64,000 bases of DNA from Paraspadella gotoi. Lineage: Eukaryota > Animalia > Chaetognatha. Positions 19,501 through 40,500 of this stretch are shown here, piece by piece. The position numbers were made by a program, and so were the translations under genes. Location: contig CM119266.1 in the NCBI GenBank assembly GCA_051294375.1, positions 17,230,087 to 17,294,086 on the forward strand, written 5' to 3'. Numbering within the stretch: position 1 is the stretch's first letter; the number at the start of each line of letters is the position of its first letter. The notes beneath the pieces are model-generated. The model saw nothing but the letters and a program-made list of their open reading frames with translations, did no database searches and had not been told where the DNA came from.

Positions 19501-22500
19501 CGAAATTCCTTTCTTCATTGTCTCGATAGCATATTGGTAACACCGGCGATTACCAATTATGTGTCCTGGGTTTGAATCCAGCTTTCCACCAAGGTGGCGT
19601 AAATAACGGATTGAGGCTTTTATGATCACTGGGTGCGAAGCCCTAAATACTATATGTATGACACACCTCGTCCGCACGTCTTTGGCGAATCTCAGGCTGG
19701 TCGCTGAGCGAAAGATATTTTTAGTTCCTGAGGGAAATTATTCTCCGTGTTTCGGCATTGCTATAAGTTTACCCTTCCAATAAAACCGACTTCTTCAGTT
19801 GTTAAACTCGGTGGCTCATTAAGAAAAGACGTCAGCTTATAGCCGGATCGATCCTCAGGGGTTCTTATCTTCCTATCCTACAGAAAGCTTGAGGACGGAC
19901 GTAAAACGATTTGAAAGACTGAAAAAACCCTCTCGCCCGTTCCCAAGCCCGAACCGAGGTGGATAAAGAGGATAAGAAGAGTAGTCTTCAGCCTCTCCCT
20001 TTGAACCCAAAAGAACCAGTTGGCCGCTTTGAAGGTGAGAATGTCCGGTTAAATCATATGTCTCTAGGTGCTACAGCCTGATCCGAAACTCAACGTAATT
20101 ATTGTAATAAATAGTAATTCATAACTTGTATTTGATGTTTTTCCCAAACAATCATCGTACGAGCTCATCATCCAATTAAATCTTCTCCTCAACCAATCAT
20201 CTCGTCTCCTCAACCAATCATCTCATCTCCTCAACCAATCATCTCGTCTCCTCACCCTGAGGAATCGATATGAGTGAAGGAGTCGTTGGACCGGGAGGAA
20301 GAGGAAGAGGAAGAGGAGCCGATGTAAGCGACGAAGTATGTTGAGTTAACTGATAAAAAAATAGGAAAAACGTCAAATGTTAACCGATGAAAATGTCAAA
20401 GATGTCAGTAGTTAAATGTCGATCGTCAGAATCCGATAATAAAAACAAATTCTCTCACTTGGACGGAAACCGATGAGGTGGGAATTATCACAGACTGTTG
20501 TTGTTGTTGTTGTTGTTGTGATTGTTGACTGGAGTGAAGATGACCGTTGATGAGTCTGTGACGTTTTAATCCCGAACTTTGTTGTTGTTGTTGTTGTTGC
20601 TCAGCAACATGAAGAGTCGCTGAGGCAGCTGCAGCGTTTTCATTGTTGGCGCCTGAGGAATTTAATTAAAACGTCAGCGTTGGCAGCTGCGGACGATTTT
20701 TCAGTAGTTTTCCATCCATCAACAATATCTGCCGCAGTTTTAAATCGGTCACCCGAAGTGACTAGCGGATTCTAACATCCTAGCGTCATTGTTTTTAGCA
20801 AAAATTTGTCACACAAAAACTTTCACACCCTCCAGTAGCAATATTTCACCTCCAAACAGCATCTCCTACAGCAACTAACCTCCCAACAGCATCCCCTGTA
20901 GCAAGTCAGCTCCCAACAGCATCTGTTCAAGCAACTCAGCTTCAAACAGCATTTCCTGCAGCAACTTACCTCCCAAAAGCATCTTCTGTAGTATCTCACT
21001 TTCCAACAGCAATATCTGAAGCAAGTCACCTCCCAACTGCATCATGTGCAGGAACTCACCTCCCAACAGCATCTCCTGCAACAAATTGTCGATTTTCGCG
21101 ACTCCAAAAAGTTTGGCGAATTGAATTTGTTCTATCATTTGCCAAGTGATCGATTGAAGAGTCGGCAGAAGCAGCAAGATTTCGCCAAAACGACCTGCAA
21201 CGGATTTTTTATGGCTATCGATAATGAAATTATGGTTCAAATGTAAATTTGAAAGTTGGCTGAATAATTTTTACTGATTATTCTCTCTCTATCTCTCTCT
21301 CTCTCTCTCTCTCTCTCTCTCTCTCAAACTCACCCCTGGATTCATATTGATGATCATTGATGTAATCCTCAAGGTTGATCTGAACCTGATATCTCATCGC
21401 TTTTATTTTCATCACTTCCGACAGTCCCTTGCCTGTGAAAGGGAAAATCAGAATTCAGAATTTCAGAAATTAGGAAATAAAAAAGAAACAATGAAATTGA
21501 TACAAGAAACTATTATACCATTTCATCCACGGACAAGCCAGGTACTCTTTGAGTGAATAAGCTAGACTGTTAAAGAGTCTCGGTTGAAAACGTGCAGCTG
21601 CTATGTTATTATCCTTTAAGATTAATGGAGGCCTAAAAACACCATGCTTTTCTTACCTTTGCCCGTCCAGTCAAGGGAGTGCGCCATGCTGCCCGGATCG
21701 AAAAAGACAATCGCCTTCAGACAAGCGAATTCAGTATCATCGATGGCGACGTCTTGAAGAGGCTTAACAAGCTCGTCCAGGACGCGGTTGGCCACTCTGG
21801 TAAGGACCAATCAATTATCAAGCAATCACTAAGCAATTACTCAATCAATTAATCAATTAATCAATCCATCAATCACCTAGCAATCTCCGATTCCAACGAA
21901 TGTCTTTGGATTACGAACGAGTTTCCCAAAAGAAGACAATCTTTGTTCCCGAGCGAACGACGCGCGACTCCGAGAAGAAGGTGCTCTCCCGCGTGCGCTC
22001 GGAGCAGCGCCACCTTGAGAGGGTGGAGGTGAAGATGGCGACAGGTGGAGGCGAAGGCGATAGATACCGTTGAGGGATGAAGGAAAAGGTGGAGTAAATT
22101 AGATAAAAACTAGGGAAGAAAATTTTACAGAGAATGAAAGTATCATGAAGGCTACTTTAGATAATTAAATAATTAACATCCATGATATCTTTGTAGTACT
22201 AAGTAAAAGTTTTATCGAATAATATGATATAATATACGAAACATAATAAGAACGAAAATCCCACTCTAATATTCAACCCTAATCTGTTAACAAACTAACT
22301 CCAATCCTTAATAGTAAATCCTAACTCTAGTCTATAACTGTAATTCCTAGACTCTAACCTAACCGTTAAACCGAAAGACTAATTCGATTTTTAATTAAAG
22401 ATAAAATGGGGTGTTTTGGGAAAATAAGGCCCAAAATCGACCTTTTGGCGACACTCTACGTTCATTCGTTTTATTCTCAAAAAACCGGCGAGCTGGGTGG

Positions 22501-37500: not shown

Positions 37501-40500
37501 ATAGGCTGGGAGAAATGATGGAGAAGATGATGGAGAAGATGAAGAGATGGTGATGGAGAAGATTAAGGAATGGCGATGGATAAGATGAATGATGGAGAAG
37601 ATGATTGAGAAGATGAATTTGATGGAGTAGATAATTGAAAATTTCAAAGTTTAGGCAATTGTCTCTTTCTTTCTAAGGGAAGAATTATGGAGGATTTAAT
37701 ATAATGTATTATTATTTATTAATTGTTTTAGAAATAAGGTGATATAATCTAAAACTTTACTTTCGAAACATGACAGTATGTTATTTACCAATGGCAATAC
37801 TAATAATGTATGGCGGCAGTTATTACACAAAACCTTCCTCTCTCTCTTTATAAATCTAGGGGTGTCAAATTTTCTTTTTAGTTTGATGAAAGGTTTTGCA
37901 TTATATTTATTTATATATAATTAAATTTGTAAATATATCTTGAACAAAATACGCTGATAAACGCATCGAACGCATGCTGAAATAGAACGAACAAACGATA
38001 TGAAAATTAAGGTAATTATATACATTCAAACAAGGTTAAAAACGAAAAAAGTTAGCAAAATATTTTGATGATAAGCTGAATGAAATCATAGTCACAAGAA
38101 GAAAACCAGACAAGGAAACAAATTCCACAAGCTGAGATAGATAAAATAGCATCCAACAAAAAGCAAACTTACACGTGGAGCAAAAGACATTAGGCTAATG
38201 AAAGGATATCGTGCAAATCACCTTTTCAATGTCGAATCTTGTGGGGTTAAAACTAAGAGGTAGTGAGGGGGAGTTGATTTTCGTTGGATTAATTGATGTA
38301 TTAACTGATTGATTAATTGATGGATTAACTGATTGATCGCCTAAAATTGATCGACAGTAGATTAGAATATAATAAGTTTAAGGAATAAAGTGGGACAGTG
38401 ACTAAAAAGCAAAAGTGACGTAACTAATACTCTCTCTTTCTCTCTCCCTCTCTCACTTTAACTTACCTGATCGTCAAGAGGTAAGTCACAGAAAGCAGGA
38501 ATGTATTTCGCCCATTCGACTAAAACCAAGAGCTGCTGCTTCATAGATTCGCAGATGTCGGCCACCGTCGCTGTCTTTCTGTCTGCAGATTCCGGACCCG
38601 CGTTCATCTACAGATGATTTAGAAATGAAAAATTTAAAGATGGAATATTGAGAAAGGAATGCAAATAATTTGAAAGAATATGATAAACATTTAAACTAGA
38701 GAGCATTTAAAACCTAAATGAGACAGACTGACTCAGACTCAGACATACCGACAGTCCAACTAATCGTCAATTTATTTTAAAACAAGAAAGTTTAAGGTCG
38801 TTTATTCTGTAAAGTATTATACTTTTGTAATTTTTTTTTTGGCTAAAAATCATTGCCTTGATATTTGTAACAAATTTTTCCGGATAGATTAAATATAAAT
38901 AGGAGACAATTTTTTTTTGGGGGGGGGGAAATCCTTTATTTAATTTCCCAAATGTTTTTTTATAAACTCCTCTAATTTCGTAAGTTTATTTTAATTTCAT
39001 TTTCCCTCAATAGTGCTCTTGTCCGCGTCGTCGTCGGAATTCGTATATTTTATTTTGATTGTTTGTCCTTATATGTTTATTCTTTTTGATGTCATTTTGT
39101 TCAAACAAAAGATCACAGTGAAGAGGTTCTTTTCGTACTTAAGTTCGATTTTCTTTTCATTTATTCTATTGACATTTTTCTTCTTTCAATTTTTATGTAA
39201 AAAAAAAAAAATCCTGATTCCACGGAAAAAAATTTTTTTTTCTCTTTGATTTCATTTTAGTCAAATTAATTTAATTTCATCGCTCTTTGACTGTTTCATT
39301 TCGCTTTAAACTAATTGTTATCGTTATAGCTCTCACCTTAGCCAATCCATATACATATATGTATATATACAGTTATACACTGTATATTGTATACTGTATA
39401 TTATACAGTAAGGCGTAGTGAAAGTTACATACGAAAATTCTAAAAGTCAATTATGAATAACATACCATCAGTGAACATTAATTTGTAAAAAAAAGTAATT
39501 TTATGCTTTTTAATTTTCGCAGTAGGCTATATTTATATATAGTACTATCCTTATAAAATCGAAAAATTTCAAAATAGGCTTTTCTTAATTTTGATTGCAG
39601 ATTTGAATTCCTCGTCAAAAGTTGATAAAAGAAAATGTAATTCATTTTTAAAAATTCTTTCATTAAGTGGGTTAAAAATTAAAAAAACTATATTTATTAT
39701 ATAAAAAGTTAATTTTCAGCTTAAAATATAGCTTTTTCTAACTTTTGACCCACTTAATGAAGGAATTTTTCAAAAAGAGTTATATTTCTTTTTATCAACT
39801 TTTTATGACGAAACCAAATCTGCAAAAAAATATTAGAAAAAACTGTTTTGAAATTTTAACATTTATTGGTTTAGTACTAGTATAAATATGGCCTACTGCA
39901 TAAATTGTAAAATTTATTATAAATTTTTTTATTATATAAATGTTCATTAGTATAATGTTGTTCGTTCTTCACTTTTAGAATTTTAATTAAAGTTAAAGTT
40001 AGAAATTTTACTACGCTTTATTATACAGTAAGGCGGGTTAAATTTGAACCATTTTTATCATTAGAAGTTCTGTCATATAAAATTCATTTGTCCATCATAT
40101 ACTTAATCAATATTTACTATCACTTTTATAACTAGTGAAGCACAGTATAACATTGAAGTATTTAAATATTTATAAATGCATAGGCAATTAAAATAAATTT
40201 TTTTAAAAAAATTATTTTTTAAGAACGGATTCAGATAGCCCAAAAAAAGTATAAAATATAATGCGTTTTTCAATATTTATAAATATTTCGATGATAAGTG
40301 GGTCAAATAAGCGAGAACGCCTAAAAATCATCATCATCATCATACCATAATTTTTTATATTTTTGCTAATTTTAACCAATAAAACAAAAAAATCTGGAAT
40401 TCTTGTAATAATATTTTTTATTTATTTTTTCAAGCTCTACCGAATCCGTTTTTAAAAATTCTGAATTTGAATTATAAAATTTTCATGATTTATAGTAATA

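What the first reader, a model, noticed from the sequence alone, without database searches (positions are those of the whole stretch)
22014..38466. Three-level nesting: HNF4 intron > LPMO gene > two zinc-finger genes
Seen: one 16.4-kb HNF4 LBD intron (-) contains the entire 13-exon LPMO gene (+). The LPMO's 6.5-kb intron 2 (24266-30786) contains two complete C2H2 genes on the same strand as the LPMO. Same-strand nesting means LPMO transcripts must bypass two acceptors and two poly(A) signals. The ZF acceptor phases (2 and 1) do not match LPMO exon 2 (phase 0), so these are not fusion exons.
Basis: seen in the sequence. Interest (0 to 1): 0.75.

Follow-up and report, generated by a model that had tools for sequence, protein, structure and literature searches.

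The report
Trans-spliced operon inside a nested intron
In an arrow worm, two zinc-finger genes sit inside an intron of a likely chitin-cutting enzyme gene that itself sits inside the HNF4 gene; RNA shows that both inner genes get a spliced leader, likely as a two-gene operon, while a sister transcript starting just upstream splices clean over both into the enzyme gene, which makes the locus a natural test of how cells choose between the two kinds of splicing.

Summary
The nesting is real: HNF4 intron 6 (16,453 nt, minus) holds an AA15 LPMO gene (plus; 14 exons in my model), whose 6,521-nt intron 2 holds two paralogous single-exon C2H2 genes. Three-level nesting alone is known (484 cases in a ctenophore). 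RNA contigs change the reading. Both zinc-finger acceptors take non-genomic chaetognath spliced leaders (25138 in 3 of 4 runs, 27595 in 2 of 4), and poly(A) ends lie at both acceptors, as in chaetognath and Ciona operons: likely an operon run from a promoter inside the LPMO intron. An unnoticed first exon there (24640-24761) is cis-spliced straight to LPMO exon 3 in 2 of 4 runs, skipping both genes; that RNA lacks the signal peptide and catalytic His1. The full-length exon 2-3 joint and the HNF4 exon 6-7 joint were not seen directly and stay inferred. LPMO intron 5 is GA-AG. No published intron-nested, leader-resolved operon turned up in my searches; the scan noted a similar same-strand nesting, without leaders, in an arthropod. 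New variant of a known kind.

The parts
21060..48598 (-). HNF4 (NR2A) gene, 10 modelled exons (further 3' exons lie below 21060); outer host
   Evidence: open frame; HNF4 best PDB hits
22014..38466 (-). HNF4 intron 6, 16,453 nt, GT-AG, phase 0; holds the LPMO gene
   Evidence: the joint itself was not seen in RNA
23640..37553 (+). AA15 LPMO gene, 14 exons, 690 aa: hydrophobic leader, His1 at residue 23 (exon 1), ANH His (exon 3), axial Phe (exon 5), long Asp/Lys-rich and GDNGQY-repeat tail
23591..23639 (+). candidate trans-splice acceptor and 5' UTR of the full-length LPMO (AU-rich tract ending TCTAG, like the ZF acceptors)
   Evidence: sequence only; inferred, untested
24266..30786 (+). LPMO intron 2 (6,521 nt), separates His1 from the second copper His; holds the inner unit
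24640..24761 (+). internal first exon A; 5' end carries a template-switch oligo in X6 (other contig 5' ends at 24597, 24693 and about 24737); donor GTAAGC at 24762; spliced to LPMO exon 3
   Evidence: tables 5, 7, 8; only strong-consensus donor found in intron 2
24597..25144 (+). non-coding leader/outron of ZF1 (longest ATG frame 7 codons), with a poly(A) end at the ZF1 acceptor
25138..27599 (+). ZF1 transcript unit: spliced-leader acceptor 25137|25138, ORF 25163-26713, 3' region continuous to a poly(A) end at 27599 (a nearer end around 27120 is possible)
27595..29579 (+). ZF2 transcript unit: spliced-leader acceptor 27594|27595, ORF 27645-29150, poly(A) end at 29579
24762..30786 (+). 6,025-nt GT-AG intron removed in the exon A -> LPMO exon 3 RNA; contains both ZF genes
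   Evidence: table 5, runs X5 and X6
33457..33623 (+). LPMO intron 5, non-canonical GA-AG (TAG|GAAAGT)
   Evidence: contig lengths in X6 and X8 fix exon 5 at 73 nt; DNA contig of X1 has no differing letter here; only this donor keeps the frame open

Best explanation
Inside intron 2 of an LPMO gene that lies antisense in HNF4 intron 6, both zinc-finger genes receive chaetognath spliced leaders and likely form a two-gene operon transcribed from a promoter predicted at about 24600-24740, and RNA starting there is also cis-spliced over both genes into LPMO exon 3. Route 1 (leaders and poly(A) ends shown, single precursor inferred): trans-splicing at 25138 and 27595 cuts the precursor, the upstream piece gains a poly(A) tail at or just past the acceptor, and ZF2 ends at 29579. 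Route 2 (shown): the donor at 24762 ignores both leader acceptors and pairs with 30787, giving an RNA without signal peptide or His1 whose first long frame follows six upstream ATGs; it cannot make a working LPMO (inferred) and is most likely read-through by-product. The full-length LPMO would use the same skip from the exon-2 donor, in cells or stages where its own upstream promoter fires (inferred, untested). The nesting is tolerated because leader acceptors are poor partners for cis donors and HNF4 runs on the other strand (inferred).
For:: 21-22-nt non-genomic leader before 25138 in X5, X6, X7 (3 of 4 runs) and a second leader before 27595 in X6, X7 (2 of 4); the X8 contigs begin exactly at both acceptors. 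The 27595 leader equals the last 21 nt of chaetognath SL2.0 and the 25138 leader differs from SL4.2 at 3 of 22 positions (PMC2481426 Table 3); the shared leader core is absent from the window. Poly(A) loose ends at 25144 and 27599 (X7) sit on the two acceptors: 2 of 4 listed poly(A) ends, among 35 runs of 5 or more A in that stretch; the Spadella operon has 3 nt between poly(A) site and acceptor, Ciona operons none. Joint 24761->30787, GT..AG, in X5 and X6; none of the 5 listed joints goes from 24761 to a ZF acceptor. The X6 contig continues through exons 3-6. Exons 1-2 look maintained: 16-31 of 38-42 residues per exon match each of nine animal AA15s, and exon 1 is 93% identical to two unnamed marine proteins that break off at the same intron site.
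Against: All RNA data are assembled contigs, which cannot show one transcript across two genes, strand, or level. X5-X7 are labelled 'DNA?' by the tool; I read them as RNA from their joints, leaders and tails. Both poly(A) ends at acceptors fall on genomic A runs (A6, A5), so internal oligo-dT priming is possible. An X8 contig stops at 27120, just after AATAAA at 27082 and 27097, so ZF1 may usually end about 475 nt before the ZF2 acceptor, which leaves room for a separate ZF2 promoter. In X5 the piece before 27593 is a different 20-nt sequence, not a listed leader and not in the window. The exon A joint comes from one study only. Exon 2 and HNF4 exon 7 lay outside both laid stretches, so their joints are untested. 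Residue -1 before His1 is Pro, where the aligned homologues have Gly or Ser; cleavage was not tested.
Confidence: 0.68

Rival explanations
1. Two separately promoted, leader-bearing genes in the intron: ZF1 and ZF2 each have their own promoter and outron, and the contig continuity is overlap of the ZF1 3' UTR with the ZF2 outron.
For: The ZF1 outron is itself polyadenylated at its acceptor (25144), so a tail at 27599 need not be the ZF1 end; an X8 contig stops at 27120 near two AATAAA; the genes are tandem paralogues and may have been copied with their promoter.
Against: X6 and X7 each give one unbroken contig 26344-27599; the listed template-switch 5' mark lies upstream of ZF1; no sequence likeness between the two upstream regions in the self-comparison.
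Confidence: 0.2
2. The inner unit has taken over the 3' part of the gene: the exon A form is the main product and codes for a leaderless repeat protein from the Met in GMGPQ, while exons 1-2 are seldom or never joined.
For: In X5 and X6 the exon A form is the contig that carries exon 3; its long frame to the C-terminus is open.
Against: Exons 1-2 are intact, in phase and strongly conserved; exons 3-4 keep catalytic-domain residues that this form would not translate; six upstream ATGs precede the frame.
Confidence: 0.07
3. Local mis-assembly at the (AG)n tracts placed LPMO exons 1-2 or the HNF4 3' half here.
For: The same window has an inverted duplicate of about 2.8 kb (48144-50910 against 51039-53702, 94.6-95.9% identical with many gaps) beside N runs, which looks like an assembly fault; no listed contig crosses the tracts.
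Against: Both hosts are split into halves that fit in order and phase. Single-copy DNA pieces and an RNA joint tie the ZF block to exon 3, and one DNA contig ties the LPMO end to HNF4 exon 6; that puts them behind an HNF4 donor and ahead of an LPMO acceptor however the tracts are joined.
Confidence: 0.05

Closest known systems
Doubly nested intronic genes of the ctenophore Hormiphora californensis (PMC8527503, section 38 read)
   Same: Gene within an intron of a gene within an intron (484 of 2,357 nested genes), many parallel to the host, in an animal with leader trans-splicing.
   Different: That section does not describe inner genes as an operon, leaders on them, or a shared first exon spliced into the host.
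Chaetognath operons (Spadella RP S14-PCNA, PMC2481426; Paraspadella genome-wide set, PMC12460157; passages read)
   Same: Same leader family; poly(A) site at the downstream acceptor; no leader tied to operon position is reported, so the two different leaders here need not mark position.
   Different: Here the unit lies inside an intron of a same-strand gene; 'nested' occurs 0 times in the main text and in 3 readable supplements of PMC12460157. Its operon spreadsheet was too large to read and may list an orthologous pair.
Ciona operons (PMC2760879, passages read)
   Same: Directly abutted cistrons resolved by leader addition; single-exon genes over-represented.
   Different: Not described as intron-nested in the passages read; the 5'-most unit here is non-coding.
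Cholinergic locus, VAChT nested in the first intron of ChAT with some shared promoters (PMC4787279 passage; PMC4769160 calls it operon-like)
   Same: Inner gene in an intron of the host with promoters shared between them; same strand, shared first exon and either-or splicing are recalled, not read.
   Different: There both products are full, related proteins and the shared exon is the host's true first exon; here the shared exon lies inside the host's coding region, the host product from it is truncated, and the inner genes are resolved by leaders.
AA15 LPMO, Thermobia TdAA15A (PDB 5MSZ; PMC5823890, passages read)
   Same: His1 aligned to residue 1, second His with neighbouring Ala, conserved cysteines, axial Phe as in the chitin-specific TdAA15B.
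   Different: About 470-residue charged, repeat-rich tail; Pro before His1; activity untested.

Membership tests
doubly nested intronic gene | whole inner gene lies in one intron of a gene that lies in one intron of a third | tested here: met
   gene models; inner RNA ends 25138-29579 all inside 24266-30786
doubly nested intronic gene | both host introns are actually spliced out | tested here: inconclusive
   24762-30786 is removed in RNA; 24266-30786 and 22014-38466 were not seen directly
SL trans-spliced gene | non-genomic leader joined at an unpaired AG acceptor upstream of the start codon | tested here: met
   table 7; match to published leaders
chaetognath operon | same-strand genes less than 250 bp apart with a leader on at least one (criterion of PMC12460157) | tested here: met
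   poly(A) end 27599 against acceptor 27595; not met if ZF1 ends near 27120
chaetognath operon | one polycistronic precursor, no promoter before the downstream gene | not testable with these tools
   only contigs are held; needs long reads and cap mapping
cholinergic-locus type (shared first exon, either-or) | one 5' region feeds the inner gene or is spliced over it into the host | tested here: met
   24640-24761 is spliced to 30787, and the same region runs unspliced into the ZF1 acceptor
cholinergic-locus type (shared first exon, either-or) | the shared exon yields the full host protein | tested here: not met
   the exon A form lacks signal peptide and His1
AA15 LPMO | histidine brace (His1, second His), neighbouring Ala, axial Phe/Tyr, conserved Cys | tested here: met
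   against PMC5823890
AA15 LPMO | signal peptide cleaved directly before His1 | not tested
   22-residue hydrophobic leader present; residue -1 is Pro; no predictor on hand
AA15 LPMO | copper-dependent oxidation of chitin or cellulose | not testable with these tools
   needs an assay
HNF4 (NR2A) | HNF4-type DNA-binding and ligand-binding domains | tested here: met
   HNF4 chains rank first (E 8e-18, RXR 2e-08) for exon 6 and are the only 8 hits for exon 7; C4 zinc-finger domain read from the model

The most novel reading that the evidence does not exclude
A splicing switch built from a nested operon: every LPMO precursor runs through two leader acceptors placed between the two halves of its copper site, so trans-splicing aborts the enzyme mRNA and yields zinc-finger mRNAs, while cis-splicing over the block yields the enzyme. 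The cis-versus-trans choice, perhaps helped by (GA)n/(UC)n pairing of the intron ends, would set LPMO output in a regulated way, and leader addition would let chaetognath genes live promoterless inside same-strand introns throughout the genome.
Probability: 0.2. Interest if true: 0.85.

Novelty: new variant of a known kind. Interest (0 to 1): 0.55.

Why it matters
How the spliceosome decides between adding a leader and joining to an upstream donor is an open question. In flatworms cis-splicing is strongly depleted at operon acceptors, by means not settled in the passages read (PMC12582326), and the nematode rule that an upstream donor turns a leader acceptor into a cis acceptor (recalled, not read) would predict the opposite of what is seen here. 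At this locus a working donor lies 376 nt upstream of a leader acceptor, skips it and a second one, and pairs 6 kb away. That is a ready-made natural reporter for the choice. It also shows a likely operon inside a same-strand intron, a layout that gene-spacing screens and gene finders are likely to mis-model, and adds chaetognaths to the animals with an RNA-supported GA-AG intron (one case).

Tried and rejected
(1) My first reading, that the 143 nt upstream of exon 3 in the X6 contig were exon 2 plus 30 nt of exon 1, was wrong: one search shows they are exon A (122) plus a 21-nt oligo. (2) Exon 2->3 joint: no loose end before 30787 is listed (15 rows cut), and the depth at the start of exon 3 is fully explained by the exon A contig in X5 and X6 and an unspliced contig in X8; X7 has no cover there. 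Contigs drop rare forms, so this is not evidence of absence. (3) HNF4 exon 6: bin depth fits exon-only cover in three runs, but no joint row was listed. (4) No listed holder is on record as RNA. (5) Protein search with exon 3: 1 candidate, no hit; with exon 1: 26 hits of 98 candidates, none from this organism. (6) ZF2 N-terminal 202 aa against 1.84 billion representatives: the best 150 are generic multi-finger proteins at 25-43% identity, no clear orthologue. (7) Synteny: metagenome scans gave 0 of 599 and 5 of 413 stretches; the five contigs (1.4-4.6 kb) hold other AA15 pieces with no HNF4 or ZF match. No whole genome was held. (8) Complementary elements looping out the ZF block: longest match 12 nt, within the range of random window pairs. 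(9) (GA)n/(UC)n end pairing as the needed bypass device: two of the three gene-hosting introns rank first and second of 23 (-105.6, -43.0 kcal/mol), but HNF4 intron 6 does not stand out (-22.1) and the observed exon A intron has almost none (-9.4); kept as a lead only. (10) A transposon carrying the ZF pair: no flanking terminal or direct repeats among those listed. (11) Literature: searches gave 0 papers; others gave 9, 4, 4 and 2 listings, none on a leader-resolved operon in a host intron by title and abstract start; most subscription papers are not held, and two C. elegans papers I wanted (unusual operons; cholinergic-locus splicing) could not be read. (12) Earlier scan notes: none for this genome.
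Full report
Anatomy. The window is animal DNA, about 35% G+C and rich in (AG)n tracts. Ten minus-strand exons give an open HNF4 frame. The 16,453-nt intron between 38467 and 22013 is GT-AG and phase 0, and its flanking exons match consecutive residues of solved HNF4 chains. On the plus strand inside it, 14 exons give a 690-aa open frame: a hydrophobic leader, an AA15 catalytic domain whose His23 aligns to His1 of TdAA15A (exon 4 also hits only that chain), and a long charged, repeat-rich tail. His1 is in exon 1, the second copper His in exon 3 and the axial Phe in exon 5, so intron 2 splits the copper site. Intron 2 (24266-30786) holds two single-exon C2H2 ORFs of 516 and 501 aa, tandem paralogues with no clear orthologue among protein representatives.

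Assembly. Nine of 11 listed runs hold the stretch, from three studies. DNA run X1 gives single-copy contigs with no differing letters over most of 24380-38902, including one that carries both the last LPMO exon and HNF4 exon 6 (the table is cut, and X1 may be the assembly's source). An RNA joint from another study bridges the whole ZF block. The links over the (AG)n tracts left of 24380 were not tested, and the window has a likely assembly fault 10 kb away, but both hosts fall into halves that fit in order and phase. I put mis-assembly at about 5%.

What the RNA shows. X5, X6, X7 and X8 behave as RNA: their contigs skip GT-AG introns or stop at exon edges, and X5-X7 carry leaders and poly(A) tails, although the tool guesses 'DNA?' for three of them. 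Before 25138, three of four runs carry a 21-22-nt piece that is not genomic; before 27595, two of four carry a related, different piece; the X8 contigs begin exactly at both sites. The second piece is the 3' end of chaetognath SL2.0 and the first is close to SL4.2 (PMC2481426 Table 3); their common core is absent from the window. So the animal is a chaetognath and both ZF acceptors are trans-splice acceptors. Poly(A) loose ends are listed at 25144, 27599, 27701 and 29579. The first two lie on the two acceptors, as in the Spadella operon (3 nt apart) and in Ciona operons (abutted). X6 and X7 each have one contig from ZF1 coding sequence to 27599. I read this as a two-gene operon, which is inference: contigs cannot show one transcript, both tails lie on genomic A runs, and an X8 contig ends at 27120 beside two AATAAA.

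The bypass. X5 and X6 have a GT-AG joint 24761->30787 that removes 6,025 nt with both ZF genes. In X6 the contig starts at 24640 with a 21-nt oligo that I recognise from memory as a template-switch oligo plus one extra G (a cap mark, also recalled), and it continues through exons 3, 4, 5 and 6. The same upstream region also runs unspliced into the ZF1 acceptor (X5 24597-25144, X7 24693-25144) and has no ATG frame over 7 codons: it is the ZF1 outron. One promoter region inside intron 2 therefore likely feeds both the leader route and the cis route. The donor at 24762 is the only strong-consensus donor my pattern found in the intron, and none of the five listed joints links it to a ZF acceptor. 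The exon A RNA lacks signal peptide and His1; its first long frame starts at the Met of GMGPQ after six upstream ATGs, so I take it as by-product.

Full-length LPMO. The exon 2->3 joint was outside the laid stretches and is not shown. I infer it from the intact, in-phase and conserved exons 1-2, from exon 1 being 93% identical to two unnamed marine proteins that stop matching at the same intron site, and from the shown fact that a donor can skip the block.

A GA-AG intron. The X6 contig places the end of exon 4 at its letter 443 and position 33621 at letter 514; X8 has 239 letters before exon 6. Both fix exon 5 at 73 nt, so intron 5 begins GAAAGT after TAG; the X1 DNA contig shows no differing letter there. 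The context fits the AG|GAA pattern of the copepod Eurytemora and of Oikopleura (PMC7072748, passages).

Comparison. Three-level nesting is not new: 484 doubly nested genes, many parallel to the host, are reported in a ctenophore (PMC8527503, section read). Chaetognath trans-splicing (about half of genes) and operons (18%) are known, with no operon-specific leader (PMC12460157, passages). A nested gene sharing promoters with its host is known from the cholinergic locus (PMC4787279 passage; PMC4769160 passage). Competition of cis- and trans-splicing at shared acceptors, and its depletion at operon acceptors, is described in flatworms (PMC12582326, passages). PMC2566580 was read in passages for the leader forms and PMC5823890 for AA15 features. 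The combination, a leader-resolved gene pair inside a same-strand host intron with an outron exon spliced into the host, did not turn up in searches; the library lacks most subscription papers, C. elegans work on unusual operons (recalled) could not be read, and the operon spreadsheet of PMC12460157 was too large to open.

Verdict. Real, and more informative than first described: a new variant of known kinds (nested genes, leader-resolved operon, shared first exon). Shown: leaders, tails, the exon A skip, the GA-AG intron. Inferred: single precursor, promoter position, full-length host joints, by-product status of the short LPMO RNA. Interest 0.55.

Noticed in passing
window 41580-46860 (+), inside HNF4 intron 4 (47020-41087): A second antisense nested gene in HNF4: vWA, teneurin-like EGF repeats and a VOMI domain (Pfam), so HNF4 hosts genes in two introns.
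   Followed up: partly
   Followed up: yes
window 48361 (-): The first modelled HNF4 intron needs a GC donor (CGG|GCATGT) to keep the frame; not RNA-tested.
   Followed up: no
window 48144-53702: Inverted duplicate of about 2.8 kb including the first modelled HNF4 exon; 94.6-95.9% identical with many small gaps, beside N runs at 49446 and 53704; likely an assembly fault.
   Followed up: partly
window 24270-24370, 30762-30781, 46935-47015, 41097-41180: (GA)n tracts just after donors and (CT)n tracts just before acceptors; two gene-hosting introns have the strongest end-to-end pairing of 23 introns scored. LPMO exon 2 is itself flanked by complementary (CT)49 and (GA)n arms.
   Followed up: partly
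window 27593 (run X5): A 20-nt non-genomic piece before the ZF2 acceptor that is neither leader seen in X6/X7 nor found in the window; third leader, distant exon or allele.
   Followed up: partly
window 27701 (run X6): Poly(A) end inside ZF2 coding sequence, about 30 nt after AATAAA at 27666; may be a longer ZF1 end running past the ZF2 acceptor.
   Followed up: no
window 33624-37553 (+): The LPMO tail has Asp/Tyr-rich and Lys-rich blocks, many dibasic sites, GDNGQY repeats spread over phase-2 exons (two only 21 and 27 nt) and a helix-like end; it could be processed or structural in chitinous spines (guess).
   Followed up: no
window 3930-6740 (+): A sialyltransferase gene (GT29, Pfam E 4.8e-12 for one exon).
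   Followed up: no
window 20800-21060 (-): Diverged tandem copies of the end of HNF4 exon 10 ([13 protein letters not shown] units) fill the start of the next intron.
   Followed up: no
window 29785-30450 and 39400-40600: High-copy repeats (very high DNA depth); the first has short inverted ends and lies between ZF2 and LPMO exon 3.
   Followed up: no
window 25375-25587 and 26029-26640: ZF1 grew by recent internal duplications (105-nt pair, 93% identical; 210-231-nt finger units, 79-90%).
   Followed up: no
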